From a virus, in IMG/VR virus record IMGVR_UViG_3300033049_000020, positions 32,001-96,000 of that record: a stretch of 64,000 bases of DNA; one strand, written 5' to 3'. The notes under the pieces are model-generated. The model searched no databases, was not told the DNA's origin, and saw only the letters and a program-made list of their open reading frames with translations. Numbering within the stretch: the stretch's first letter is position 1; each line of letters starts with the position of its first letter. The position numbers and the translations under genes were made by a program. This document shows positions 5,834-62,517 of the stretch, one piece after another.

Positions 5834-7288
5834 ATGAATACATTAGTTAACGCAATTAGAACAAACGACAAGACTACAGAGAATGGAATGGCAACAAACT
5901 CCACGACTCTTAGTATGTGCGTAGACCTATTCTCAAGAGTAGGTGCAATGAGAACACAAACTCCTCAAGAAGTTATTAATCTTTTCGTAAAGGCATTTGA
6001 TGAAGATGCTTTGACTGCTATGAAAATTCTTTTTTGGGCAAGAGACGTTAGAGGTGGAGCTGGCGAGAGAAGAATATCACGAGATATATTTAAGTATTTA
6101 GCTGAAAACAGAGCAACAGTTCTGGCTAAGAACCTACACTTGATTCCAGAGTTCGGAAGATGGGATGACACTATGGTGTTGTTCGGTACTCCATTGGAAG
6201 ATGCTACAATCGAAATGATTGTAAAGGCATTGAATAACAAAGAAGGTCTTTGCGCTAAGTGGATGCCACGTCCAAATGTAAAGGACGCAACTAAAAAAAG
6301 AGTTGTTAAGGCACTGAGGGATAAATTGAATTTGTCTCCAAAAGAGTACCGTAAGATGTTGGTTGAATTGACTAACGTAGTGGAAACTGCGATGTGTTCA
6401 GGAGACTGGTCATCTATCGAGTACGGGAAGATTCCATCAAAGGCAATGTCTGACTACATGAAGACGTTTGGTAAGCACGATACCGATAGGTTCGTTGCAT
6501 ACTTAGCATCTGTAGAAAAGGGTGAAGCTAAAATCAATGCTGGCGCTGTATATCCATACAACGTTGTAAATTCATTGAAGCAAGGCAACACTCAAGGGGC
6601 AAATGCTCAATGGAATGCACTTCCTAACTACTTGGAAGGTAACGCTGAAAGGTTGTTACCAGTGGTAGACGTATCGGGTTCAATGGGTTGTTTAGCTAGT
6701 GGTTCAGGGTCAGTAACATGCCTTGACGTAGCGATAAGCCTTGGACTATATGTTTCAGAAAGAAATGAAGGCGCATTTAAGGATGCATTTGTAACTTTCT
6801 CAAGCAATCCTGACCTTCAATTCCTTAAGGGGAGTTTAAGTGATAGGTACAATCAATTGTCACGTAGTCAATGGAATATGAGTACTAATATTGAAAAGGT
6901 GTTCAAACTTATCCTTGATAAGGGTATTGCTGGTAATGTTCCACAAGAACAAATGCCTACCATGATTACAATATTTAGTGACATGCAGTTTAATGCGGCA
7001 ACAAGTTCGGGTTGGGGAAACTCAGGCTCAGACTGGAACCCTACTGCGCAAAGCATGATAGAAACTATGTATGAAAATGCAGGTTATGAAGTGCCTAAGT
7101 TGGTTTACTGGAACCTACACGCTAGAAATGGTGATAGTCCAGTACAATTCGACAAGCAGGGAACTGCACTGGTAAGTGGATTTAACGTTAATCTCCTAAC
7201 AAATCTATTAGCTGGTAAGGATTTGTCTCCGTACAGTATGATGATGAGCACACTTAGTAACGATAGATATGCATCTATAGCAGTATAA
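5834..7288 (+). CDS. DUF2828-type protein: helical N-terminal domain plus vWA (Ro60/TROVE-related)
   Basis: WARDVRGGAGER, FGRWDD, AKWMPR; MIDAS VVDVSGSM; FSDMQF; YWNL; LVSGF. Confidence 0.8.
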   Translation: MNTLVNAIRTNDKTTENGMATNSTTLSMCVDLFSRVGAMRTQTPQEVINLFVKAFDEDALTAMKILFWARDVRGGAGERRISRDIFKYLAENRATVLAKNLHLIPEFGRWDDTMVLFGTPLEDATIEMIVKALNNKEGLCAKWMPRPNVKDATKKRVVKALRDKLNLSPKEYRKMLVELTNVVETAMCSGDWSSIEYGKIPSKAMSDYMKTFGKHDTDRFVAYLASVEKGEAKINAGAVYPYNVVNSLKQGNTQGANAQWNALPNYLEGNAERLLPVVDVSGSMGCLASGSGSVTCLDVAISLGLYVSERNEGAFKDAFVTFSSNPDLQFLKGSLSDRYNQLSRSQWNMSTNIEKVFKLILDKGIAGNVPQEQMPTMITIFSDMQFNAATSSGWGNSGSDWNPTAQSMIETMYENAGYEVPKLVYWNLHARNGDSPVQFDKQGTALVSGFNVNLLTNLLAGKDLSPYSMMMSTLSNDRYASIAV

Positions 7289-12750: not shown

Positions 12751-13126
12751 GGGGTCGACTGGTTTTGACTGCAAGAGATTGGATGTATAAGCAAGCACTG
12801 GGAATTTTTGGATTATACCAGTATAAAATGTATCTGAAAACTATAACTGACGAAACTAACGTAACATCAGCACAATATCTAGAAAGCATTGCACTTGCAG
12901 TGACTTCAGAGAAGGCAGCGCTATCTGCATAATAAGCGCCAATTAGGAGAAGCCTAATAAAGCCTCAGTGTTCTTTCATTGATGAGGTTGAAACTACAAA
13001 GAAAGATGGGTTTGTGAATTCCTATAAAGATTCACTAGTTTGATGGTTTAGAAAAACTAAATAAGCTTGTAGAAAGTATGTATGGTACTTGTTAGGACGA
13101 GGGTTCGATTCCCTCCGACTCCACCC
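12751..13126 (+). ncRNA. ssrA: tmRNA with 27-codon tag DETNVTSAQYLESIALAVTSEKAALSA (12849-12932)
   Basis: 5' GGGGTCG pairs with 3' CGACTCC-A; T-arm GAGGGTTCGATTCCCTC; ATAACT before resume codon; Ala-ending tag then TAATAA. Confidence 0.9.
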
Positions 13127-14313: not shown

Positions 14314-14697
14314 ATGAAGAAAGAACAAGATTGTATGTAGATTTGTAAGAACAACAAGTTAATTACTATTACGAGGCAAGATATGCCTTATGGGTATCAG
14401 TGCGTCCAGAGCGCACATTCAGTAGCATACTTTGCTATTGACTACCGTGAAGAATTCGAAAGATGGCACGAGACCTCACAATACATGGTCTCCCTAGGTG
14501 CTAAAGATGAAAATCATTTAAAGGAGCTAATCAATAAAGCTGATGAGAAGGGTGTTAAAGTCTCTATCTTCATCGAGCCTGACCTTGATAATCAAATAAC
14601 GTCTATAACATTGGAACCTTGTGAGGCAGCTCGTAAGATGACCAGTTCATTACCAAAAATAATGAAAGAATTAGGTTGGGAGGTGCCAGCATCATGA
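14314..14697 (+). CDS. Pth2-like peptidyl-tRNA hydrolase with in-frame TAG at codon 9 (14338-14340)
   Basis: MKKEQDCM*ICKNNKLITITRQDMPYGYQCVQSAH...FIEPDLDNQITSI...TSSLP. Confidence 0.75.
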
Positions 14698-15334: not shown

Positions 15335-15408
15335 GCCTTTGTAGCTCAGTTGGTCAGAGTAGGGGACTCTAAATCCTTTGGTCGTGGGTTCGAATCCCAC
15401 CATTGGCA
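15335..15408 (+). tRNA. tRNA with CTA anticodon (amber-suppressor type)
   Basis: Cloverleaf; GGGGA-CT-CTA-AA-TCCTT; two U-U pairs in acceptor stem. Confidence 0.85.
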
Positions 15409-15413
15409 CATAA

Positions 15414-15482
15414 GGGACAATTGTAGGTACGGGTCTGAGATTCTAAACCTCAAGGCATGGGGTTCGAATCCCCATTGTCCCT
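15414..15482 (+). tRNA. Second CTA-anticodon tRNA, degenerate D-arm
   Basis: GGGACAA/TTGTCCC; TGAGA-TT-CTA-AA-CCTCA; canonical T-arm. Confidence 0.7.
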
Positions 15483-15515
15483 CTGTTATTACCAAATAAA
15501 CTTAATATCTTTATT

Positions 15516-16043
15516 ATGTTAAAACAAATTTCATACTTCGAGAAGGAAGCTCTCATCAGGGCGGCATTTCCTAAAGATATCATTTGTCATATCTCTGGTG
15601 CTTATACTAATGGTGACGATAGTGATGAGCTTACAATAGAGAAATCCTTAAAGCAGATAGCTTTTAGAAAACAATGGAATATAGATAACCCACATGAGGT
15701 TATATACGAACCTTCTGGTACTACATATAAACGACCAGAACCAGAACTATTCGTCTTACAAGAAATAGACCCTGATTGGACTTTAGATTATTACTTCCGA
15801 GAGGAATATGGTCAAGCTATCTTTGATGAGCTGACAGCCAAACATAGGGGACAACGAATTAACTTCAAATATACTAATATAGATAAGGATATTAACATCG
15901 ATATTGATGGTACAGTAGTTGAGTTATATGCGCCTCCGAATAAAGATGCTAAACGAAATAAGGACAACTATAGGGTCTTATGGGATGACGGAAAGATAGG
16001 TGTAGTAGAATTAGAAGAAAAAGCCATAACTTTATTGAACTGA
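15516..16043 (+). CDS. Hypothetical protein
   Basis: 175 aa ORF. Confidence 0.45.
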   Translation: MLKQISYFEKEALIRAAFPKDIICHISGAYTNGDDSDELTIEKSLKQIAFRKQWNIDNPHEVIYEPSGTTYKRPEPELFVLQEIDPDWTLDYYFREEYGQAIFDELTAKHRGQRINFKYTNIDKDINIDIDGTVVELYAPPNKDAKRNKDNYRVLWDDGKIGVVELEEKAITLLN

Positions 16044-16154
16044 TTATCAATCACTTAGTAATTATTTTCAAAAAACTTTACAATAATACTTGACAAATCC
16101 AAATAAATATAGTATCTTTGTATCATAATTAACCGAAAGGTTCTTTGAAATTTT

Positions 16155-16533
16155 GGCCTTGTAGCTCAGAGAAGACGGATTTATAAGTACTTCGGTACCT
16201 TTATCTTAAAGAGCACTGTCTAGACAGATGTCGCAGGTTGAATCCCTGCCGAGGCCACATATGGGGATGAAGTAAGTACACCTAGTGTAAACTGCTTTTG
16301 GAAGCTCACCCTTCCCATCCCCACCAATTGGGGACGAAGCATTGGGGTTAAAGCCAAACGCTTACTTGGTAGTGAAAATCTACCCGTCCCCACTAATATG
16401 CGTGGATAGCATAATCAGAAAGGACACTGATAATATTGTCGTTGAATTACATTCTTGGTCGACAATCGCTAATTATACCTTTCTAGTGCAACTGCTTAGG
16501 TAGTTTGTTGAGGTGGAAACCCTCATCCATGCA
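16155..16533 (+). ncRNA. Four tandem tRNA-like RNAs lacking a normal anticodon loop (16155-16257, 16263-16326, 16330-16395, 16400-16533)
   Basis: Each has a 7-bp acceptor stem and a T-arm-like hairpin; preceded by promoter and boxA-like GTTCTTTGAAA. Confidence 0.7.
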
Positions 16534-16541
16534 CTTTTTAA

Positions 16542-16737
16542 AAGTTAGGTTCAGCAACCAAATCCAACTATGGAAGTCTGTTTCATGCGTTAACTAACTA
16601 ACTTGTAAAATATTAAAAGTAGATTTCAGCAACCCAAATCTTTCAGATAAGAAAAACCATCTACTTGAACTTTTAAAGGAAGCTTACAGCAACTTACAAA
16701 TCTAAAATCAATTTTAACGGAAAAAGATGCCTTCCTG
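16542..16737 (+). ncRNA. Three tandem CAGCAA hairpin RNAs (16542-16605, 16617-16667, 16677-16737)
   Basis: Closing stems AAGTTAG/CTAACTT, AAGTAGA/TCTACTT, AGGAAG/CTTCCT, each followed by T(T/A)CAGCAA. Confidence 0.7.
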
Positions 16738-16744
16738 ATGCACT

Positions 16745-16774
16745 AAACCCTTAGCTAACCGCTAAGGGTTTTTT
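16745..16774 (+). terminator. Intrinsic terminator of the small-RNA operon
   Basis: AAACCCTTAGC-TAACC-GCTAAGGGTTT-TTT. Confidence 0.85.
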
Positions 16775-16814
16775 CTTTATCGATAATATCAATTATTTTC
16801 GGTATCTTTGCAGT

Positions 16815-17387
16815 ATGGAAATTAAATATACCAATATTATGAATGAGAAAGTGAAGAATAAAAACGGGGTAATATTTCCTAAGTTATTAATCATCGGAAA
16901 TGGTCGCCATGGGAAAGATACAGTAGCTGAAATTCTACGAGACGAATACCAGATGACATTCAAGTCGTCATCATTAGCAGCAGCAGAGATATTCCTGTAT
17001 GATGCATTAAAAGACAAATACAATTATCAGACTCCAGAAGAGTGTTTTGAGGATAGAGCTAATCATAGACCAGAGTGGTATGAAATGATTTGTGATTATA
17101 ACAATCTTGATAAGGCTAAGTTAGCCAAGTCTATCCTAAAGGAGGCTGACTGTTATGTTGGTATGCGAGATAGAGGTGAGATAGTAGAATGTCTAAAACA
17201 AGGAGTATTTGAACTCGTTATTTGGGTGGACGCATCTGACCGATTACCGTTGGAACCAGCATCCTCATTCAACATAGATAAGTCTTGTGCAGATATAATT
17301 ATCGAGAACAATGGTACTTTAGAAGAGTTAGTCGCTAAAGTAAAGAGATTAGGAAGTGTATTGGACGTTTACGAGCCAATGTTCTAA
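16815..17387 (+). CDS. P-loop dNMP-kinase-like protein
   Basis: IIGNGRHGKDT; IIIENNGTL. Confidence 0.7.
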   Translation: MEIKYTNIMNEKVKNKNGVIFPKLLIIGNGRHGKDTVAEILRDEYQMTFKSSSLAAAEIFLYDALKDKYNYQTPEECFEDRANHRPEWYEMICDYNNLDKAKLAKSILKEADCYVGMRDRGEIVECLKQGVFELVIWVDASDRLPLEPASSFNIDKSCADIIIENNGTLEELVAKVKRLGSVLDVYEPMF

Positions 17388-17469
17388 AAGTCAGCTAAAT
17401 AGATTAATAGAAAAGCTCAGATTTGGTTATCTGGGCTTTTTTTCGTACCTTTGTATTATATTTATAGAT

Positions 17470-17928
17470 ATGAAGTTAGGAGAAGCATTTGATGAGATAA
17501 CTAACGAGCCACATATCGAAGTAGAGGATACGGAGGATGGGTTTGACGTAACGGTATATGTGGGTGGCATAAAAGCTGGTAAATTAGTGGCACAATACAT
17601 TACTGGTGGCTATTGGGGATTCGAGGATGAATTCAGTGAGGAGGAGTATGATGTAATGTTCCCAGACGATAGTTTCTTCAAGATTGAGTATGTATCTGTA
17701 GATGACGGATACAAGGGTGATGGGTTAGGTAAACTTATGATGAGTAAAGCGATTGCACTGATTAAGAATAATGGGATAGATACCGTATATTTGAATGCCT
17801 CTCCCATGGGCTTTACTGGTTTAGATATATCCGATTTAGTAGGGTTCTACAAGAAATTCGGATTTAAGGTTATACAAAAAACAGGTGATAAGTATCACGA
17901 GAATAAAGAAATGATATTGAAATTATGA
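17470..17928 (+). CDS. GNAT acetyltransferase (likely start 17470)
   Basis: VDDGYKGDGLGK; FYKKFGF. Confidence 0.85.
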   Translation: MKLGEAFDEITNEPHIEVEDTEDGFDVTVYVGGIKAGKLVAQYITGGYWGFEDEFSEEEYDVMFPDDSFFKIEYVSVDDGYKGDGLGKLMMSKAIALIKNNGIDTVYLNASPMGFTGLDISDLVGFYKKFGFKVIQKTGDKYHENKEMILKL

Positions 17929-18368
17929 GTGTAAGAGAAAATTTGCGAGGAAGACTACTAATCGAATCTGAGGAGAAGCGTATTCCTATGAATATTGAAA
18001 TCCCAGATGATATACGTAAGATTGAACAAGTGTTCAAGTCTAACGGTAAGAAGTTGTTCGTAGTGGGTGGCTCAATTAGAGACGCTATATTGGGTAAAGA
18101 ACCTAAAGATTGGGATTTGGCAACTGACGCGGTGCCAGATGATGTGATACGAATGCTTAAAATGCAATCGTTCGTCACTAACGTTATTGAGACTGGTAAA
18201 GCGTTCGGAGTCATTAATGCTTTGACAGTTAATGACGAATACGAAATTGCCACATTCAGAAAGGATATTTTTCATAATGAGAAGAAGGATTTAGATTCAT
18301 TTTTAATATATCTAAAAGGTACAGATATTGCTAAGTATGAATTGTTTAAAGAAGGGCTAATGAAATAG
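17925..18368 (+). CDS. CCA-adding/poly(A) polymerase family, N-terminal part
   Basis: VVGGSIRD, KDWDLAT, GKAFG, EIATFRKD. Confidence 0.9.
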   Translation: MSVRENLRGRLLIESEEKRIPMNIEIPDDIRKIEQVFKSNGKKLFVVGGSIRDAILGKEPKDWDLATDAVPDDVIRMLKMQSFVTNVIETGKAFGVINALTVNDEYEIATFRKDIFHNEKKDLDSFLIYLKGTDIAKYELFKEGLMK

Positions 18369-18386
18369 CGACTTTTAGACTTCTTC

Positions 18387-19085
18387 ATGATATTTATAAT
18401 AAAGAATATCATGGTAAAAGGTTACATATATAAATTGATTTGTCCGATAAGTGGTGAATGTAGATATGTTGGTAAGACTGTTCAGAGATTAAATAAACGA
18501 CTTAACAAACATAAGTATGATAAGAGAAAGAATCCGAGCCATAAGAATAGTTGGTTAATTCAATTAGAGGATAAAGGGTTATTAGGTGATATAAAAATTG
18601 AAATAATAGAGGAATGTGATACTTCGGTATTAAATGATAGGGAAATATTTTGGATTGCTAAATTAACTAGTAGTGGTTATAAGTTAACCAATATGACGGA
18701 AGGTGGTGATGTTGGTTCGTTAGGTTATAAACACACTGACGAAGCCATACGTAAAATTTCTGAGGCTGGAAAAAAACGTAAGGGGTTTAAACATACTGAT
18801 GAAGCTAAGAAAAACATTAGTAAATCTCTTATTGGTAATGATAGGCATAAAGGGTGTAACCATTCGGAAGAAACGAAGAAACAAATATCCGAAAGTAAGA
18901 AAGGTACTGTTAGTTGGAATGCACAAACAGTTTTACAATTGGATAAGGAAAGTAACATAATAAGTGAGTGGAGAAGTGCTAAGTATGCTGCCGAACAACT
19001 TGGTTTAAGTCAGGGTAATATTTGGTCGGTAATAAACGGTGACCGAAACACTTGTGGTGGGTTTAAATGGAAAAAAAATGGATGA
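18387..19085 (+). CDS. GIY-YIG homing endonuclease (NUMOD3/NUMOD1) interrupting the CCA-adding enzyme gene
   Basis: GYIY..YVGKT; HTDE/HSEETK repeats; GFKW. Confidence 0.85.
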   Translation: MIFIIKNIMVKGYIYKLICPISGECRYVGKTVQRLNKRLNKHKYDKRKNPSHKNSWLIQLEDKGLLGDIKIEIIEECDTSVLNDREIFWIAKLTSSGYKLTNMTEGGDVGSLGYKHTDEAIRKISEAGKKRKGFKHTDEAKKNISKSLIGNDRHKGCNHSEETKKQISESKKGTVSWNAQTVLQLDKESNIISEWRSAKYAAEQLGLSQGNIWSVINGDRNTCGGFKWKKNG

Positions 19086-19258
19086 AACTTATAAATATAT
19101 GAAAGGGTGGGTCGATAGAGTTAATCAACCACAAAAAGATTTTTGGGTTGAAACTCCATGGGGTAGATTTAAAAATCTTAGACCTATAACAACAGAAAAT
19201 GACGAGATTGGTGAAATTACTATAACTATGCAATATGATAAATGGGATAAACAATCAG

Positions 19259-20173
19259 ATGATGAGTAACTGGGAAGAAATAGCTAAACAATTGGTACCT
19301 GATGAATATAATGAGTTTATGGCTCATTCTTCTGATGGCCGTAGACCAGATGAGGTAGAGTTCACGGACATTGCAACCGATGTTAAAAGGCGAGACTTGA
19401 CTATTAACGCACTTTTTTATGATTTGGATACCAATGAGGTTGTTGACCTCGTAGGTGGAGTAGAGGACATTAAAAATGGTGTAGTGAAGACCGTAGGGGA
19501 TGCTGGCGAACGTTTTGAAGAGGATAAACTTAGAATCCTCAGAGCTATCAGGTTTGCTGGTAGATTCGGGAGTCAAGTGGATTCAAAGATTGACCAACTA
19601 CTTAGTAAGGATATTGACATGTCCCAGATTTCTGGAGAACGTATTAGAGACGAGTTCATTAAAGGTATTGAAAAGGCTAAATCAACAGTGCAATTCTTAG
19701 CTCTGATGAACAAGTACGACCTATTGGCACATGTGTTTCCAGACTTAATTCCTAAAGCAGGGGCTAATTCTAAAACGTTTATGGAGAGCCATGACCCAGT
19801 ACTGGTCATATCCTCAATCCTATTACCATTTGCAACCAGTAAATTAAAATCTCAATTGAATGGGCTTAAATACCCACAGTCTGAGGCTTCTAATATAGAA
19901 TTTTTAACGACTTGGCTACCAAATCTTAACCCTAATTTCATAAATCAATTTAAGAAGAAGCAAGTCAGAACTACATTATCTGATGAACAGGTAATGGAGT
20001 TTGCCAAGTTCAACAGTATGGATGTTAATATGATTTCTACTATGCTTAAGTTTAACCTAAGCGTTAAAGGTGATGAAGTGATGTCCAAATATGGAATTAA
20101 GGGTAAAGAAGTGGGTAACATGATAGATAAACTTGAGGCCAGTAACTTCAAGTCTACCCTTAATAACTTGTAG
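19259..20173 (+). CDS. CCA-adding/poly(A) polymerase family, C-terminal part
   Basis: DGRRPD, RRDLTINAL, RFEEDKLRILRAIRF, ISGERIRDE. Confidence 0.9.
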   Translation: MMSNWEEIAKQLVPDEYNEFMAHSSDGRRPDEVEFTDIATDVKRRDLTINALFYDLDTNEVVDLVGGVEDIKNGVVKTVGDAGERFEEDKLRILRAIRFAGRFGSQVDSKIDQLLSKDIDMSQISGERIRDEFIKGIEKAKSTVQFLALMNKYDLLAHVFPDLIPKAGANSKTFMESHDPVLVISSILLPFATSKLKSQLNGLKYPQSEASNIEFLTTWLPNLNPNFINQFKKKQVRTTLSDEQVMEFAKFNSMDVNMISTMLKFNLSVKGDEVMSKYGIKGKEVGNMIDKLEASNFKSTLNNL

Positions 20174-25051: not shown

Positions 25052-25122
25052 ACAGGTGAGAGCTTAGGAGCCAGCAAGTCTCCAAAACTTCGCTGTAGGG
25101 GGTTCGATGCCCTCCACCTGTG
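25052..25122 (+). tRNA. tRNA-Trp(CCA)
   Basis: ACAGGTG/CACCTGT; AAGT-CT-CCA-AA-ACTT. Confidence 0.75.
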
Positions 25123-25464: not shown

Positions 25465-25580
25465 TAGGTGAAAGCGGAATGGGAGACGCGGCTCTAAAAC
25501 GTGGAGTGTCAGAGACTAAAATCTCGCAATGAAACCTACCAAGGTGAATTTGTAATTGAGTTCGAATCTCAATCACCTGA
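25465..25580 (+). ncRNA. Expanded tRNA-like RNA with extra internal hairpins
   Basis: TAGGTGA/TCACCTG acceptor, GCG/CGC D-arm, TTGAGTTCGAATCTCAA T-arm. Confidence 0.6.
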
Positions 25581-26986: not shown

Positions 26987-27589
26987 ATGGCTAGTTTAAA
27001 AGAAAAGATAGTAAAATTACGTAAAGAAGGTAAAACGTATGACGATATAAAAGAAAATTTAGGATGTTCAAAATCGACAATATCTTATCATTGCCAAAGA
27101 CATAACGTTGGAGATAAGCGTAAGCGAACGTTTTTAACTGATGAGGATGTTATTAAATTACAAAATTATTACTTAATACACACCATTGAGGAATGCTGTA
27201 ACGAGTTCAACATTTCAAGGACTACAGTACATAGATATACTGACAATAAGATTTGGGGTCTGACGGAGGATGAGAAAAAAAGTAGAAATTATAATAGGGT
27301 TAAATTACATAGACAAAAGATAAAAGAGAAAGCAGTAGAATATAAAGGTGGGGAGTGTGAAAAATGTGGATACAATAAATGCTATTGGGCATTCGATTTT
27401 CACCATACTAACCCAGATGACAAAGAATTTACTATCTCCAAATACTCAACTCTGTCATGGGACAGAATTAAAGTGGAATTAGATAAGTGTGAGATGTTAT
27501 GTGCTAACTGTCATAGAGAATCACATTATCAAGAGTATATCGATGATTTATATTGTGCGGTAACCAGCGTGTCTGATACACATGACTAA
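26987..27589 (+). CDS. HTH plus HNH endonuclease
   Basis: N-terminal HTH; FDFHH..ELDKCEMLCANCHRE. Confidence 0.88.
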   Translation: MASLKEKIVKLRKEGKTYDDIKENLGCSKSTISYHCQRHNVGDKRKRTFLTDEDVIKLQNYYLIHTIEECCNEFNISRTTVHRYTDNKIWGLTEDEKKSRNYNRVKLHRQKIKEKAVEYKGGECEKCGYNKCYWAFDFHHTNPDDKEFTISKYSTLSWDRIKVELDKCEMLCANCHRESHYQEYIDDLYCAVTSVSDTHD

Positions 27590-27630
27590 GGTAACGGTTG
27601 AAAATAAGGGTTCGATTCCCTTTCGCACAA
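27554..27630 (+). tRNA. Rearranged tRNA-Ile(GAT)
   Basis: TGTGCGG/TCGCACA; CGTGT-CT-GAT-AC-ACATG lies before the D-loop-like GTAACGG. Confidence 0.7.
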
Positions 27631-27861: not shown

Positions 27862-27941
27862 CCAGACATACCGAGCCAAGCTTATATCTTGGATATTCGT
27901 AGCGGTTGTTGAAAACGAGGGTTCGAATCCCTCTGTCTGGA
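27862..27941 (+). tRNA. Rearranged tRNA-Ile(TAT)
   Basis: CCAGACA/TGTCTGG; CCAAG-CT-TAT-AT-CTTGG before GTAGCGG. Confidence 0.7.
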
Positions 27942-28451: not shown

Positions 28452-28539
28452 TGCAGGGTCGAGAAGTGGTATCTCATGAGTCTCATAAGCTCAAATAGCC
28501 TAACGGTTGTCGATGGTTCGATTCCATCTCCTGCTTCCA
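28452..28539 (+). tRNA. tRNA-Met(CAT), long variable arm
   Basis: TGAGT-CT-CAT-AA-GCTCA; encoded CCA. Confidence 0.8.
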
Positions 28540-29506: not shown

Positions 29507-29598
29507 CGCGGAAATGAGGGCTGGTGGTGACGCTCAGATAGGCTCATAACCTATCAGGTTGAAACATACTGTGATTGGTTCGATTCCAACTTCCGCAA
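29507..29598 (+). tRNA. tRNA-Met(CAT), C1-A72 mismatch, long variable arm
   Basis: ATAGG-CT-CAT-AA-CCTAT. Confidence 0.75.
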
Positions 29599-29688
29599 CT
29601 TTTGATATTTCTCTAGAGAGGCTGATACCCGTAGAGTGTAAAGTGGTAATATAGCTTAGAAAGTGAAGTTCACAATATCAAAAAATAT

Positions 29689-29774
29689 TCTCAGTTCGCA
29701 TAGTGGCCGATTGCAGAAGACTGTTAATCTTCCGAGGGTTCCCCTCCACGCTAGTTCGAATCTAGCACTGAGAG
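29689..29774 (+). tRNA. tRNA-Asn(GTT), long variable arm
   Basis: GAAGA-CT-GTT-AA-TCTTC; G73. Confidence 0.85.
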
Positions 29775-29832
29775 CATCTATTTACATTTTCTTGTAAGTT
29801 GACTATATTTATTAACGTAAACAGTTAATAAT

Positions 29833-30520: not shown

Positions 30521-30590
30521 TGCGGTGCTTAGTGGCAGAGGTCTTTGGCTCATATCCGAAGATAAGGCAGTTCGAACCTGCTCACCGCGA
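30521..30590 (+). tRNA. tRNA(CAT), reduced D-arm
   Basis: TTTGG-CT-CAT-AT-CCGAA. Confidence 0.7.
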
Positions 30591-32785: not shown

Positions 32786-32865
32786 GGGGGTATAACCGAC
32801 TAAGTTTTCTAAACTTTTAATCGTAATCGGAGTTGAAAATGGGGGTTCGAGTCCCTCTACCCCTT
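32786..32865 (+). tRNA. Rearranged tRNA-Arg(TCT)
   Basis: AAGT-TT-TCT-AA-ACTT then GTAATCGGA. Confidence 0.7.
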
Positions 32866-48755: not shown

Positions 48756-48841
48756 GTGTAGGTGCCTGAGTGGTCGAAAGGTGCGGTCTGCAAAACCGTA
48801 AGGAGAAATCCTCATCGTCAGTTCGAATCTGACCCTACACT
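48756..48841 (+). tRNA. tRNA-Cys(GCA), long variable arm
   Basis: GCGGT-CT-GCA-AA-ACCGT; U73. Confidence 0.85.
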
Positions 48842-48847
48842 CTAAAT

Positions 48848-50568: not shown

Positions 50569-51213
50569 ATGAGGAAACCAAAAACGATACATTACATTTA
50601 CAAAACCACTTGTGATGTAACTGGTCGATACTATGTAGGGATGCATAGTACCAGTAACCTAGAAGATGGTTATATGGGTTCAGGTAAGAGGTTAAGACGT
50701 TCCATACGTAAGTACGGAGAAGATAATCATACCAAAGAGGTTGTGGCGTTCTACGATAGTAGGGAACTACTGGTTGAAGCTGAGAAGGAAGCCATCACAC
50801 CATATATGATTGGGGATAGGGATTGTATGAATCTGATGGGAGGTGGAACTGGCGGTTGGTGTAGTGAGGAGCACATGGTTAAATGTACTATAGCTGCTGG
50901 AAAAGCTAATAAAGTAAGGTTTGAAGTGGATATTGAGTATAAGAATTGGTGTTTAGATATTATGGCTAAAGGTAGGGCTAAATTAATTGATACGGGAGCG
51001 TATAAAAAGAAAGGTAAGGGGTTAGGTAGAGTTCATTCAGATGAAACTAAACAGAAAATGTCCAAATCGTCTAAAGGGAATGGTGTTGGAAAGTCTAACT
51101 CTCAATATGGTACTTGTTGGATAACCAGAGATGGTGAGAACAAAAAAATAAAGAAAGAAACTCTTAATGAATACTTAGAGATAGGTTGGGTTAGGGGAAG
51201 AGGAATAAAATGA
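50569..51213 (+). CDS. Seg-like GIY-YIG/NUMOD3 homing endonuclease
   Basis: YIYKTT..YYVGMH..YMGSG. Confidence 0.85.
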   Translation: MRKPKTIHYIYKTTCDVTGRYYVGMHSTSNLEDGYMGSGKRLRRSIRKYGEDNHTKEVVAFYDSRELLVEAEKEAITPYMIGDRDCMNLMGGGTGGWCSEEHMVKCTIAAGKANKVRFEVDIEYKNWCLDIMAKGRAKLIDTGAYKKKGKGLGRVHSDETKQKMSKSSKGNGVGKSNSQYGTCWITRDGENKKIKKETLNEYLEIGWVRGRGIK

Positions 51214-51302
51214 AGGATAGGTTCAGCAAAAACCAACAGGTAAACAATTTGATTTCAACTCAGATTCAGGTGGTTCAAATCCATCGAACAATATCTATCC
51301 TG
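51214..51302 (+). ncRNA. CAGCAA hairpin RNA with an embedded TCA anticodon arm and T-arm
   Basis: AGGATAG/CTATCCT; GTTCAGCAA; TTTGA-TT-TCA-AC-TCAGA; GGTGG-TTCAAAT-CCATC. Confidence 0.65.
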
Positions 51303-51603
51303 TCTTATTTAATTTGGATAAGTGAAAATTTTTACTTATCTTTGTACTATTATGACTAAAGAAGAGAAAAAAGCTAAAAGATTAGCAAGGGCAGAACGCA
51401 GACGCGAGAAGCAACGTAAGAGAACTTGGTTCGACTATGGTACTCTTCGTACAGACATCCCTCTTTGGGCTGCAAGACAGATTGCCCGAAAAGGCTACTC
51501 TTCAGCAAGTTGGGATGACCCTAGTTCACCAACTGGCAGAAGCCAAGTTTGTGATTGGAGTGGAGTCTGTCAAGCTCCTTGTAATGGTGATTGTTAGTAT
51601 ATC

Positions 51604-51662
51604 TGTGGGGTAGCTCAGTTGGCTAGAGCCTTGTTTCGGTGGTTCGAATCCGCCCCCCACAA
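51604..51662 (+). ncRNA. tRNA-like RNA without anticodon arm
   Basis: Intact acceptor, D-arm and T-arm joined by the 8-nt CTTGTTTC. Confidence 0.75.
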
Positions 51663-60013: not shown

Positions 60014-60640
60014 ATGGTAAGAAAATGGAGAGAAAAGGAAATTGAGTTTTTAAAGCTTAATTATGGTGCTAATGGTTGTAAATACGTTTGTGAAAAATTA
60101 AATAGAGGTAGAGGTAGTGTACAGAAAAAGGCTAAAGTCTTCAACCTGAAAGTAGATAGGAAAAAAATTTATTATTCAGTGGAAGTTGTTAGTAGAATAG
60201 TCAGTGAAAGTATGTCGATGAAGGATGTGGTGTTGGCATTAGGTAAAAGTGTTAGTGGTAAACAATATAAGGTAATAAAAAAGTTTATAGATGATAATAG
60301 TATTGACGATACACATTTTAATCCTTACCACTTAAATAAAACTAATTTAAAAATTGGTAGAGTCACATATCCAATTGACCATTGGCTTAAGAACGGTTCT
60401 AATATTAGTAGTTCTAACTTAAAGGTTAAACTATATAAAGAAGGTCTGAAGAAGAGGGATTGCGAAATGTGTGGGCAAGGTGAAGAATGGTTAGGTAAAA
60501 AAATGAGTTTAATACTTGACCATATTAATGGGGTGAATGATGATAATAGGTTGGATAACTTAAGGATTGTTTGCCCTAATTGTAACGCTACCTTGGAAAC
60601 CCATTGTAGAGGTAGTAAGGGATTAAAACAACGTGCGTAA
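60014..60640 (+). CDS. HNH endonuclease
   Basis: CEMCG..LDHINGVNDDNRLDNLRIVCPNC. Confidence 0.9.
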   Translation: MVRKWREKEIEFLKLNYGANGCKYVCEKLNRGRGSVQKKAKVFNLKVDRKKIYYSVEVVSRIVSESMSMKDVVLALGKSVSGKQYKVIKKFIDDNSIDDTHFNPYHLNKTNLKIGRVTYPIDHWLKNGSNISSSNLKVKLYKEGLKKRDCEMCGQGEEWLGKKMSLILDHINGVNDDNRLDNLRIVCPNCNATLETHCRGSKGLKQRA

Positions 60641-60714
60641 TGCAATTGGGTGCGCAACTGGGCTTTCACCCCAGCTACATTGTTAGAGAGTGGGTTCGAT
60701 TCCCACACGCATGA
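60632..60714 (+). tRNA. tRNA-Glu(TTC), long variable arm, inside a split tRNA (halves 59934-59964 and 60720-60767)
   Basis: CTGGG-CT-TTC-AC-CCCAG. Confidence 0.8.
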
Positions 60715-60908
60715 CTATACAACCTTGTGTCTATATGACTTCGAGGGTTCGAATCCCTTCGGCACTACATTATTGGTGTTCCAAATTGACCTAAAATTGA
60801 GTGTTTTGGAACACCAATAACCAGCCAAAACTACCTGTTTTAGGGTACATTTGGCTGGTTATAGAACGCGGAATGTACTTAAATGTGGTAGATTCCGAGA
60901 AATATCAC

Positions 60909-62369: not shown

Positions 62370-62398
62370 CCTTTGACAATCTGGAAAGACAGATAAAT

Positions 62399-62481
62399 GG
62401 ATATGGCGCATAACGGCTGGTGTACCTGACTGTCACTCAGGTGTGTGTAACACGTAGTGGGTTCGACTCCCATCATATCTG
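62399..62481 (+). tRNA. tRNA-Asp(GTC), long variable arm
   Basis: CCTGA-CT-GTC-AC-TCAGG; G73. Confidence 0.82.
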
Positions 62482-62517
62482 CCCTTGACTTTTTGGTACT
62501 TAGCCATATTTATATGT

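What the first reader, a model, noticed from the sequence alone, without database searches (positions are those of the whole stretch)
16091..16774. Self-contained operon of seven small non-coding RNAs
Promoter, boxA-like motif, four tRNA mimics, three CAGCAA RNAs and a strong terminator, with no ORF. Two mimics (16155, 16400) have long hairpins inserted in the D-loop and a stub in place of the anticodon arm (CTGTCTAGACAG; CTGCTTAGGTAG). Two (16263, 16330) are about 64-nt mini-tRNAs with GGGGA(T/C)G acceptor stems, one ending ACCA. They could be RNase P/Z-processed decoys or scaffolds.
Basis: partly seen in the sequence, partly recalled or inferred. Interest (0 to 1): 0.72.

Follow-up and report, generated by a model that had tools for sequence, protein, structure and literature searches.

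The report
Phage Y-like and tRNA-like RNA operon
A giant marine phage has a self-contained gene cluster that makes seven small RNAs and no protein. Three carry a conserved "handle" that in many other phages lies beside the gene for a ring-shaped Ro60-like RNA-surveillance protein, which this phage also has. Four are tRNA look-alikes without an anticodon loop. The cluster most likely supplies the RNA parts of an unpublished phage version of the Ro60/Y-RNA particle.

Summary
Window 16090-16778 is a promoter-to-terminator unit with no credible ORF. It holds four tRNA-shaped RNAs and three stem+CAGCAA RNAs.

The CAGCAA RNAs belong to a real, covarying family: the 7-bp closing stem is 98.8% paired and 6 of 7 pairs show compensatory changes. 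My covariance model finds this family next to DUF2828 genes in distant phages and bacterial or MAG contigs. Thirty-two of 36 hits lie within 400 nt of the gene, all on the gene strand (P~1e-38).

The window encodes such a protein at 5834-7288. Its predicted fold matches Ro60/TROVE+vWA; the top 13 PDB hits are all Ro60.

The tandem GGGGA...CCCC-ACCA minis recur directly after the DUF2828 gene of an unrelated 482-kb phage.

Best reading: the operon supplies Y-RNA-like and tRNA-like ligands for a phage Ro60-like particle. Binding, processing and transcription are untested, and the role of the four tRNA look-alikes is the least certain part.

None of the seven RNAs reaches the Rfam tRNA, YrlA or Dictyostelium Class I thresholds.

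This scan has already reported the handle/DUF2828 pairing on many other genomes. I found no paper describing it. New here are the stand-alone operon and the free anticodon-less tRNA-likes.

The parts
16090..16120 (+). Promoter: -33 TTGACA (16090-16095) and -7 TAtcTTTG (16113-16120), Bacteroidota type
   Evidence: The same block occurs at window 8198, 48523 and 58869 and in relatives.
16139..16150 (+). boxA-like leader motif GGTTCTTTGAAA
   Evidence: Conserved about 20 nt after the -7 box in the RNA operons of L005, L011, L013 and L020. A role in antitermination is inferred.
16155..16257 (+). tRNA-shaped RNA 1: acceptor GGCCUUG/CGAGGCC plus A73, D stem GCUC/GAGC with a UUCG-capped insert, 12-nt stub CUGU[CUAG]ACAG in place of the anticodon arm, T arm GCAGG-UUGAAUC-CCUGC
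   Evidence: Fold (centroid; z = -1.6). No tRNA call. The GU[CUAG]AC hairpin recurs in RNA cargo of L013.
16263..16326 (+). Mini 1: acceptor GGGGAUG/CAUCCCC, one long arm with a CUA triloop, 5-bp arm with a 6-nt loop, encoded ACCA
   Evidence: Fold z = -3.2. Weak match to the tmRNA tRNA-like-domain model, 10.5 bits. The tandem-mini architecture is shared with L197/G007.
16330..16395 (+). Mini 2: acceptor GGGGACG/CGUCCCC, arm with loop GGUUAAAG, T-like arm GGUAG-UGAAAAU-CUACC, ends ACUA
   Evidence: Fold z = -3.4, 0 of 200 shuffles as good. Junction CCCCACCAAUUGGGGA is identical in L197.
16400..16533 (+). tRNA-shaped RNA 2: acceptor GCGUGGA/UCCAUGC with G3:U70 and A73, about 75-nt rod-like hairpin growing from the D stem, stub ACUGC[UUAG]GUAGU, T arm UGAGG-UGGAAAC-CCUCA
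   Evidence: Fold z = -3.2. No tRNA call. The T loop UGGAAAC is shared with another tRNA-like of the same genome.
16542..16605 (+). CAGCAA (handle) RNA 1
   Evidence: R1 41.6 bits, E = 8e-6. Member of alignment A1.
16617..16667 (+). CAGCAA (handle) RNA 2
   Evidence: R1 46.6 bits, E = 8e-7. A1.
16677..16737 (+). CAGCAA (handle) RNA 3 (CUUACAGCAAC)
   Evidence: R1 48.3 bits, E = 3e-7. Rfam Dicty_Class_I 19.5 bits, below threshold.
16745..16778 (+). Intrinsic terminator: 11-bp stem, 5-nt loop, T run
5834..7288 (+). Gene for the 484-aa DUF2828+DUF7788 protein with a Ro60 (TROVE ring + vWA/MIDAS) fold; proposed protein partner
51211..51306 (+). Fourth handle RNA of the window, carrying an internal T-arm-like hairpin GGUGG-UUCAAAU-CCAUC
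   Evidence: R1 27.3 bits, E = 0.008. Sequence.

Best explanation
The unit is a stand-alone non-coding RNA operon in the tRNA/tmRNA island of a Bacteroidota jumbo phage. It supplies the RNA ligands of the phage's Ro60-like ring protein, the DUF2828+vWA protein at window 5834-7288.

Proposed course:
- Inferred: transcription starts at the TTGACA/TAtcTTTG promoter. The boxA-like element keeps RNA polymerase going across about 650 untranslated, highly structured bases, up to the strong terminator.
- Inferred: the transcript is cut like a tRNA precursor. RNase P cuts at the four U|G junctions, 3' ends are trimmed, and CCA is completed by the phage CCA-adding enzyme encoded 1.2 kb downstream.
- Association shown, binding inferred: the three released CAGCAA RNAs bind the ring protein through their handle. 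The handle is a 7-10 bp clamp of the 5' and 3' ends, followed on the 5' strand by single-stranded YC(A/U)GCAA and ending in ...YCU-G. This is analogous to the way Y RNAs use a terminal stem and a 5'-strand motif to bind Ro60 and to gate or tether it.
- Inferred, least certain: the four anticodon-less tRNA-shaped RNAs play in trans the part that the tRNA-like domain plays inside YrlA-type Y RNAs. Alternatively they are ring ligands through their acceptor helix plus single-stranded ACCA tail.
- Inferred: the particle acts on the phage's very large and partly non-canonical tRNA pool, in quality control or in the conflict with the host over tRNAs.
For: (1) The family is real. In 24 RNAs from this phage clade the closing stem is paired in 98.8% of cells, with compensatory changes at 6 of 7 pairs. 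This beats 500 of 500 shuffles and all slid controls.

(2) Model R1, which includes the three window RNAs, was searched against 80 viral loci around DUF2828 homologues of 42-66% identity. It gave 36 hits at E<=0.01, all on the gene strand. Thirty-two lie within 400 nt of the gene, in 24 loci; binomial P~3e-38.

(3) In 80 bacterial or MAG loci (35-53% identity), all 19 hits are on the gene strand and most lie 20-300 nt upstream of the gene.

(4) Fourteen of the 34 loci with such hits (24 viral, 10 bacterial/MAG) have no tRNA gene nearby. The link is therefore not merely a shared tRNA island.

(5) Four relatives (three 100% complete, one 86%) and G007 (complete) each have both DUF2828 and R1 hits. 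One 36%-complete fragment has neither.

(6) The window protein has a confident model (pLDDT 93.7). Its 13 best PDB matches are all Ro60/TROVE proteins over the full length, E 8e-10 to 3e-5. After those come only vWA domains. The MIDAS motif DxSxS is invariant.

(7) Some gene-adjacent family members enclose a circularly permuted tRNA (T arm, closed acceptor, D arm). One of them hits Rfam YrlA positions 24-84 at E = 2e-5.

(8) Tandem minis with the identical junction CCCCACCAAUUGGGGA start 16 nt after the DUF2828 stop codon in a 482-kb phage, and a terminator follows them.

(9) Relatives keep the same operon (promoter, boxA-like motif, handle RNAs, odd G-rich-acceptor tRNA-likes) at the same syntenic place.

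(10) All four tRNA-likes have U(-1)/G(+1) and fully paired stems.
Against: - No binding, processing or transcription data exist. No RNA run holds the region.
- In this genome the RNAs lie 9 kb from the protein gene, so the link rests on other lineages and on synteny within one clade.
- The tRNA-likes have no detectable homologues beyond G007 and three relatives.
- The mini/DUF2828 adjacency is a single independent case.
- The handle lacks the GNCGAA motif of known bacterial Y RNAs.
- Pfam TROVE does not match the protein.
- The three window handle RNAs carry no tRNA-like cargo and fold weakly on their own (z -0.6 to -1.5).
- No RtcB or RNA ligase was found in the 43%-complete record.
Confidence: 0.57

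Rival explanations
1. Mixed operon. Only the CAGCAA RNAs work with the Ro60-like protein. The four tRNA-shaped RNAs are independent decoys or sponges. They would soak up tRNA-binding enzymes or host tRNA-targeting defence nucleases, using their acceptor/T-arm body while offering no cleavable anticodon loop.
For: They have complete acceptor and T-arm bodies but truncated anticodon arms. They lack the handle. They sit in a genome rich in tRNA-related functions: Pth2, CCA-adding enzyme, tmRNA and more than 40 tRNAs. The mini/DUF2828 adjacency is only one independent case.
Against: They are co-transcribed with the handle RNAs. The tandem minis lie directly behind the DUF2828 gene in G007. The CUAG hairpin of RNA 1 recurs as cargo inside a handle RNA of L013. 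YrlA-type relatives put the same kind of anticodon-less tRNA body inside the handle.
Confidence: 0.2
2. The four tRNA-shaped units are decaying tRNA gene copies. At most they are kept as RNase P/Z punctuation that frees the neighbouring RNAs, and they have no function of their own.
For: They are not recognised by ARAGORN or the Rfam tRNA model. Their sequences are poorly conserved outside this genome. T loops lack C56, and mini 1 has a 6-nt loop.
Against: Every stem is fully paired: acceptor 7/7, T 5/5, stubs 4-6 bp. Three of the four fold far better than shuffles. Inserts form long regular helices rather than random sequence. The tandem-mini architecture, with an identical junction and an encoded ACCA, is kept in a phage whose DUF2828 protein is only 48% identical.
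Confidence: 0.08
3. The stem+CAGCAA elements are cis-acting RNA signals (processing, stability or regulatory sites of tRNA-type operons and of DUF2828 mRNAs). They are not trans-acting protein partners.
For: They lie in the UTR-like flanks of DUF2828 genes and inside tRNA operons. The interiors of the short members are A-rich and unstructured.
Against: Here they form their own promoter-to-terminator unit 9 kb from the gene. They occur in tandem arrays of 2-5. Some enclose whole permuted tRNA domains like YrlA. The conserved single-stranded motif and invariant end nucleotides look like a protein-binding site.
Confidence: 0.08
4. The tRNA-likes are unorthodox stop-codon decoders. Their loops contain CUA (RNA 1, mini 1) or UUA (mini 2, RNA 2), and two amber-suppressor tRNAs lie 700 nt upstream.
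For: The loop contents are CUAG, CUA, GGUUAAAG and UUAG. There are CUA-anticodon tRNAs at 15335-15483.
Against: The loops are 3, 4, 4 and 8 nt, and the arms are 5 or more nt shorter than a 17-nt anticodon arm. There is no U33/R37 context. Such RNAs could not reach the decoding centre, by established tRNA geometry.
Confidence: 0.03

Closest known systems
Ro60 (Rsr) with Y RNAs, especially bacterial and phage YrlA/YrlB (Chen et al. 2014, PMC4201824; Rfam RF02553), and the Ro60 of Thermus phage phiLo (PMC12135203; PDB 9L5Y)
   Same: - A ring protein with a TROVE-like helical ring plus a vWA/MIDAS domain.
- Small RNAs whose 5' and 3' ends form a stem, with a conserved 5'-strand motif, encoded beside the protein gene in many lineages.
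- Several RNAs per genome.
- Some members carry a permuted, anticodon-less tRNA domain, with a partial YrlA hit.
- Location among tRNA and RNA-repair functions.
- M. smegmatis YrlA is cut by RNase P and receives CCA (PMC4201824).
   Different: - The protein is DUF2828/DUF7788, not Pfam TROVE.
- The handle motif is YC(A/U)GCAA after a short clamp, instead of GNCGAA(N)G in a long bulged stem.
- The three window RNAs have no tRNA domain. Four free-standing tRNA-shaped RNAs with open acceptor ends are co-transcribed instead.
- The RNAs sit 9 kb from the gene in an operon of their own.
- No Rfam YrlA hit in the window.
Class I RNAs of dictyostelid amoebae (Rfam RF01414; Kjellin et al. 2021, PMC7919456)
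   Same: RNAs of about 50-65 nt. A short covarying stem joins the 5' and 3' ends. A conserved single-stranded motif (CCUUACAGCAA) follows directly 3' of the 5' strand. The interior is variable and A/U-rich, and the 3' end is ...CUG. Window RNA 3 has CUUACAGCAA. The Rfam model hits family members at 19.5-33.4 bits.
   Different: All hits are below the 41.5-bit gathering score. Class I RNAs are eukaryotic, with DUSE promoters, and their authors reported them as absent outside Dictyostelia. Their known direct binder is an RRM protein (Rnp1A/CIBP). No test of common ancestry or of a shared protein partner was possible here.
Small stable RNAs C and D (species 1 and 2) of the phage T4 tRNA gene cluster (recalled from memory, not tested here)
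   Same: Non-tRNA small RNAs co-transcribed and co-processed with phage tRNAs, with tRNA-like termini and unknown function.
   Different: No sequence or structural comparison was made. T4 is not known to encode a Ro60-like protein.
tmRNA tRNA-like domain (Rfam RF00023)
   Same: Mini 1 gives a weak match (10.5 bits, E = 0.08): an acceptor starting GGGG plus a T-like arm and no anticodon arm.
   Different: The minis have G3-C70, not G3:U70. They have no mRNA-like part. The phage has its own normal tmRNA at 12751-13125.

Membership tests
tRNA (Rfam RF00005) | Cloverleaf scoring at least 29 bits, or an ARAGORN call, with a 5-bp anticodon stem and a 7-nt loop | tested here: not met
   No RF00005 match even at E<=10 over 15900-17000. 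No ARAGORN call. Loops in the anticodon-arm position are 3, 4, 4 and 8 nt.
tRNA (Rfam RF00005) | 7-bp acceptor stem stacked on a 5-bp T arm, plus a discriminator base | tested here: met
   All four units. Three have a 7-nt T loop with U54...A58. Mini 1 has a 6-nt loop.
YrlA / bacterial Y RNA (Rfam RF02553; Chen 2014) | Rfam score at least 69 bits | tested here: not met
   No YrlA hit in the window region at E<=10. A relative, L220:3877-3939, reaches 39.2 bits over the tRNA-like part only.
YrlA / bacterial Y RNA (Rfam RF02553; Chen 2014) | GNCGAAN0-1G motif on the 5' strand of the terminal stem | tested here: not met
   The conserved motif is YC(A/U)GCAA, single-stranded, after a 7-10 bp clamp.
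YrlA / bacterial Y RNA (Rfam RF02553; Chen 2014) | Encoded next to a Ro60 orthologue | tested here: inconclusive
   The family lies next to Ro60-fold DUF2828 genes in 24 of 80 viral loci and in about 10 of 80 bacterial loci. In this genome the gene is 9 kb upstream, and it is not a Pfam TROVE protein.
YrlA / bacterial Y RNA (Rfam RF02553; Chen 2014) | Bound by Ro60/Rsr | not testable with these tools
   Needs RIP or EMSA.
Stem+CAGCAA handle RNA family (this scan's own family; model R1) | Covarying 7-bp or longer clamp of the 5' and 3' ends, YC(A/U)GCAA 1-3 nt after the 5' strand, 3' end ...U-G | tested here: met
   Three window RNAs score 41.6-48.3 bits, E 8e-6 to 3e-7. Covariation.
Stem+CAGCAA handle RNA family (this scan's own family; model R1) | Co-occurrence with a DUF2828 (Ro60-fold) gene in the same genome | tested here: met
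   Window 5834-7288. The relatives G001-G004 and G007 have both.
Dictyostelid Class I RNA (Rfam RF01414) | Rfam score at least 41.5 bits | tested here: not met
   19.5 bits for 16678-16737. 28.2-33.4 bits for relatives.
Dictyostelid Class I RNA (Rfam RF01414) | Short terminal stem plus an 11-nt motif next to the 5' strand, in an RNA of 42-65 nt | tested here: met
   RNA 3 has CUUACAGCAA (10 of 11). RNAs 1 and 2 have UUCAGCAA. Lengths are 51-64 nt. Feature list from PMC7919456.
Ro60 / TROVE proteins (for the proposed partner protein) | Pfam TROVE (PF05731) match | tested here: not met
   No match at E<=1 in the whole record. Pfam gives DUF2828 and DUF7788.
Ro60 / TROVE proteins (for the proposed partner protein) | Helical ring plus a C-terminal vWA domain with a MIDAS motif (fold) | tested here: met
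   AF2 pLDDT 93.7. Foldseek top 13 are all Ro60/TROVE over 510-570 columns. D279-x-S281-x-S283 is invariant. The profile's best PDB sequence hits are TROVE/Ro60, at E about 0.07-0.12.
boxA antitermination element | Conserved GYTCTTTRA-type motif early in an untranslated RNA operon | tested here: met
   GGTTCTTTGAAA here; CGTTCTTTAAC, CGTTCTTACAA, AGTTCATTGAAA and CGTTCTTAAAC in relatives. The comparison with the E. coli boxA consensus is from memory.
boxA antitermination element | Binding of NusB/NusE and read-through of terminators | not testable with these tools
   Needs biochemistry or reporter assays.

The most novel reading that the evidence does not exclude
The operon encodes a Ro60-type particle assembled in trans. 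Handle RNAs dock on the DUF2828 ring. Separate anticodon-less tRNA bodies and acceptor-stem minis with ready-made ACCA tails form a second, so far unknown ligand class of the ring; their tails may thread the central hole. This would give the phage a dedicated machine to inspect or protect tRNA 3' ends during infection.

A bolder extension is that the near-identical handle of dictyostelid Class I RNAs reflects the same kind of protein partner. I rate that extension alone at about 0.07 or less.
Probability: 0.18. Interest if true: 0.82.

Novelty: new variant of a known kind. Interest (0 to 1): 0.62.

Why it matters
Ro60/Y-RNA particles are a long-studied but still poorly understood RNA-surveillance system. 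In bacteria and phages only the TROVE/YrlA type has been described. DUF2828 proteins form a very large family: more than 6,600 clusters at 50% identity, mostly viral. I found no paper on their function.

If the CAGCAA RNAs are their partners, thousands of phages carry an unrecognised Ro60-like ribonucleoprotein linked to their tRNA genes.

This window adds three points:
- The RNAs are independent genes with their own promoter, boxA-like leader and terminator. They are not UTR elements.
- They are co-expressed with free tRNA-shaped RNAs that lack an anticodon loop.
- One of those classes, the tandem ACCA-tailed minis, also lies directly behind the protein gene in an unrelated giant phage.

This gives concrete, clonable substrates (50-135 nt RNAs and a 484-aa protein) for binding, structural and processing experiments.

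Tried and rejected
- Cultured-phage DNA search with the 711-nt unit found no match. The upstream ORF 15516-16043 has no relatives in viral contigs. The dNMP-kinase-like neighbour has no close cultured relative.
- Expression: no RNA holder listed. Contigs from four DNA runs in two studies cover parts of the unit and are identical to it, so no natural variants were available to test the stems.
- Rfam: nothing reaches a gathering score. The weak hits are the terminator (NsiR1, PyrR, SpF51), Plastid-ycf2 on the opposite strand, and skipping-rope.
- Covariance models for the minis and the two large mimics were not built. With two sequences each, MAFFT put the arms out of register.
- Pattern hunts for minis (104/105) and a stem+ACCA scan of 160 DUF2828 loci found only the 482-kb phage G007. 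The other hits were chance matches or ordinary tRNAs.
- Guide-RNA idea: complementarity of the three handle-RNA interiors to phage tRNAs, tmRNA and the tRNA-likes is no better than for shuffled sequence.
- Leader-peptide idea (UCA GCA = Ser-Ala). Long-class relatives have AUG or GUG in the clamp and short M-x-S-A frames. However, L020 has AUA with a compensatory change, and the short class, including the three window RNAs, has no start codon. Rejected as the general explanation.
- DNA-level repeat or MITE: rejected because of the compensatory changes, the strict gene-strand bias and the enclosed tRNA domains.
- RtcB and RNA-ligase families are not found in the record, which is only 43% complete.
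- Dictyostelium link: I could not test whether the uncharacterised Class I interactor DDB_G0281243 is a DUF2828 protein. No eukaryotic sequences are within reach of these tools.
Full report
**What is there.** The window is part of a 152-kb IMG/VR virus record estimated to be 43% complete, which implies a jumbo phage. Its promoters are of the Bacteroidota type. The window is packed with translation-related genes: 30 ARAGORN tRNAs, a tmRNA, ClpP, a Pth2-like gene and a CCA-adding enzyme split by a GIY-YIG endonuclease.

Positions 16090-16778 contain, in order:
- TTGACA (16090) and TAtcTTTG (16113-16120);
- the boxA-like GGTTCTTTGAAA (16139-16150);
- four tRNA-shaped units (16155-16257, 16263-16326, 16330-16395, 16400-16533);
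- three stem+CAGCAA units (16542-16605, 16617-16667, 16677-16737);
- an 11-bp terminator hairpin with a T run (16745-16778).

The longest ORFs inside are 57, 53 and 30 codons. The promoter block recurs at three other places in the genome and in relatives. The boxA-like motif is kept in the equivalent RNA operons of L005, L011, L013 and L020, but is absent from the two leader-peptide tRNA promoters of this genome.

**The tRNA-shaped units.** RNAfold reproduces the described shapes.
- Unit 1 has a 7-bp acceptor stem, a GCUC/GAGC D stem holding a UUCG-capped insert, the 12-nt palindromic stub CUGU[CUAG]ACAG, and a T arm. With z = -1.6 and a competing pairing in the MFE structure, it is the weakest.
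- The two 60-64-nt minis (z = -3.2 and -3.4) are three-way junctions: a GGGGAYG acceptor, one long arm and one T-like arm. Mini 1 ends ACCA and mini 2 ends ACUA.
- Unit 4 (z = -3.2) has a rod of about 75 nt growing from the D stem, the stub ACUGC[UUAG]GUAGU, a T arm, and a G3:U70 pair with A73.

All stems are fully paired. All four units start with G preceded by U, against 22 of 43 for the phage's ordinary tRNAs.

None is called by ARAGORN or reaches the Rfam tRNA model even at E<=10. They are tRNA-shaped but not tRNAs. The loops at the anticodon-arm position are CUAG, CUA, GGUUAAAG and UUAG; I leave this unexplained.

**The CAGCAA RNAs are a conserved family.** Loci around homologues of the downstream dNMP-kinase-like gene show the same layout in relatives: tmRNA, then a promoter+boxA-like RNA operon, then the kinase gene. 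These operons contain RNAs with a terminal clamp followed by YC(A/U)GCAA and ending ...YCU-G. There are three size classes: 49-70 nt; 78-89 nt with an internal T-arm-like hairpin; and 128-260 nt.

An alignment of 24 short members registers cleanly. The 7-bp clamp is paired in 98.8% of cells, with compensatory changes at 6 of 7 pairs. This is far above shuffled and slid controls.

The covariance model R1 finds five members in this genome, four of them in the window: the three of the finding plus 51211-51306. It finds 2-5 in each of four relatives (three 100% complete, one 86%; 306-380 kb). A pattern scan of all viral contigs, filtered with R1, recovered further members on more contigs of this kind.

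**Link to a Ro60-like protein.** Earlier notes of this scan, made on other genomes, said that this handle travels with DUF2828 proteins of Ro60 shape. I tested the claim here.

The window encodes a 484-aa DUF2828+DUF7788 protein at 5834-7288. With a 100-sequence alignment, AlphaFold gives pLDDT 93.7 and pTM 0.92. Foldseek's 13 best PDB matches are all Ro60/TROVE proteins aligned over essentially the whole length: Thermus phage phiLo Ro60, Xenopus and human Ro60, and Deinococcus Rsr, at E 8e-10 to 3e-5. Only isolated vWA domains follow. The MIDAS DxSxS motif is invariant. Pfam TROVE itself does not match. A profile search of PDB sequences ranks TROVE/Ro60 first, but only at E about 0.1.

I ran R1 on 80 viral loci centred on DUF2828 homologues of 42-66% identity. 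It gave 36 hits at E<=0.01. All are on the gene's strand, and 32 lie within 400 nt of the gene (17 upstream, 15 downstream) in 24 loci. The binomial P is about 3e-38 against uniform placement.

In 80 bacterial or MAG loci (35-53% identity), all 19 hits are on the gene strand and most lie 20-300 nt upstream. Fourteen of the 34 loci with such hits (24 viral, 10 bacterial/MAG) contain no tRNA gene, so the adjacency is not just a shared tRNA island.

Some gene-adjacent members enclose a circularly permuted tRNA body (T arm, closed acceptor, D arm). One of these hits the tRNA-like part of Rfam YrlA at E = 2e-5.

In the window's own clade the RNAs lie 6-9 kb downstream of the gene on the same strand.

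**Link of the tRNA-shaped RNAs to the same system.** The evidence here is thinner.

In the complete 482-kb phage G007, whose DUF2828 protein is 48% identical, two minis start 16 nt after the stop codon: GGGGAAG...CUUCCCC-ACCA, AUU, GGGGAAU...AUUCCCC-ACCA. A terminator follows them. The junction CCCCACCAAUUGGGGA is identical to window 16319-16334. G007 also has three handle RNAs elsewhere. Wider pattern hunts found no third lineage.

Relatives L013, L015 and L018 carry, inside their handle-RNA operons, other free-standing tRNA-likes with G-rich acceptors (GGGGAGA, AGGGGAA, AGGGAAG) and no 7-nt anticodon loop. The GU[CUAG]AC hairpin of unit 1 recurs as cargo in a handle RNA of L013.

An anticodon-less tRNA body is exactly what YrlA-type Y RNAs carry internally. 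Here it would be supplied as separate molecules.

**Mechanism, with the status of each step.**
- Shown: the sequence features; the family covariation; the genomic association with DUF2828; the Ro60 fold of the protein.
- Inferred: transcription as one unit with boxA-aided read-through; RNase P/Z-type processing and CCA completion; binding of the handle to the ring, by analogy with Ro60 contacting the 5' strand of the Y RNA stem (PMC4201824); and a role in surveillance or protection of the phage's large tRNA pool.

I put 0.57 on this overall reading. The three CAGCAA RNAs being Ro60-like partners is the stronger part. The role of the four tRNA-likes is much less certain. Rivals are given separately.

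**Comparison and novelty.** The system works like Ro60/Y RNA but fails the membership tests for YrlA (no GNCGAA motif, no Rfam hit in the window) and for TROVE (Pfam).

The handle resembles dictyostelid Class I RNAs to a surprising degree: the stem, CUUACAGCAA, and the CUG end. The Rfam model hits family members at 19.5-33.4 bits. All hits are below threshold, the authors of the Class I work found none outside Dictyostelia, and I could not test a shared protein partner. I treat this as a resemblance only.

I found no paper on DUF2828 function or on this RNA family. This scan has already reported the pairing on at least 38 other genomes. What is new here is the stand-alone operon and the co-expressed free tRNA-likes and minis. 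I class it as a new variant of a known kind.

Noticed in passing
window 51604-51661: A 58-nt tRNA-like with acceptor stem, canonical D arm and T arm but no anticodon arm at all. It lies about 300 nt after the T-arm-bearing handle RNA at 51211-51306. ARAGORN does not call it.
   Followed up: partly
window 25052-25121, 25465-25579, 27554-27629, 27862-27940, 30521-30589, 32786-32864: Several elements with a canonical GGTTCGA T arm and a 7-bp acceptor stem that ARAGORN misses.
   Followed up: no
window 17925-20173: The CCA-adding enzyme is split into an N-terminal part (17925-18368) and a C-terminal part (19235-20173) by a GIY-YIG/NUMOD homing-endonuclease gene (18387-19085).
   Followed up: no
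L005:376-573, L011:2795-3054, L015:3212-3447, L020:1172-1388, L022:1930-2076: Long-class handle RNAs (128-260 nt) come directly after the promoter+boxA-like leader in relatives. Most have AUG or GUG inside the clamp and a short in-frame M-x-S-A peptide. L020 has AUA with a compensatory change. It is undecided whether any is translated.
   Followed up: partly
window 28452-28539, 29507-29599, 29689-29775, 48756-48842, 60632-60715, 62398-62484: tRNAs of normally short isotypes (Met, Asn, Cys, Glu, Asp) are 84-93 nt long, which suggests extra arms or inserts.
   Followed up: no
G000:113178-113246 (17 kb beyond the window end): A 69-nt tRNA-like with the same unusual T loop (UGGAAAC) as unit 16400-16533, and a 6-bp stem with a 5-nt AUCUA loop in the anticodon position.
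   Followed up: no
window 16216-16227 and L013:3110-3135: CTAG-containing hairpins (GU[CUAG]AC) occur in two different phage RNAs, although GTCTAGAC is rare in about 1 Mb of related sequence: about 5 distinct sites against about 16 expected.
   Followed up: partly
window 15950-16850: Contigs from four metagenome runs in two studies (seawater 2019, subsurface 2017) cover this stretch or parts of it, and are letter-identical to it where they cover.
   Followed up: yes
window 14383-14697 and 17356-17928: A Pth2-like peptidyl-tRNA hydrolase and a GNAT acetyltransferase flank the RNA operon region. Any link to aminoacyl-tRNA chemistry was not examined.
   Followed up: no
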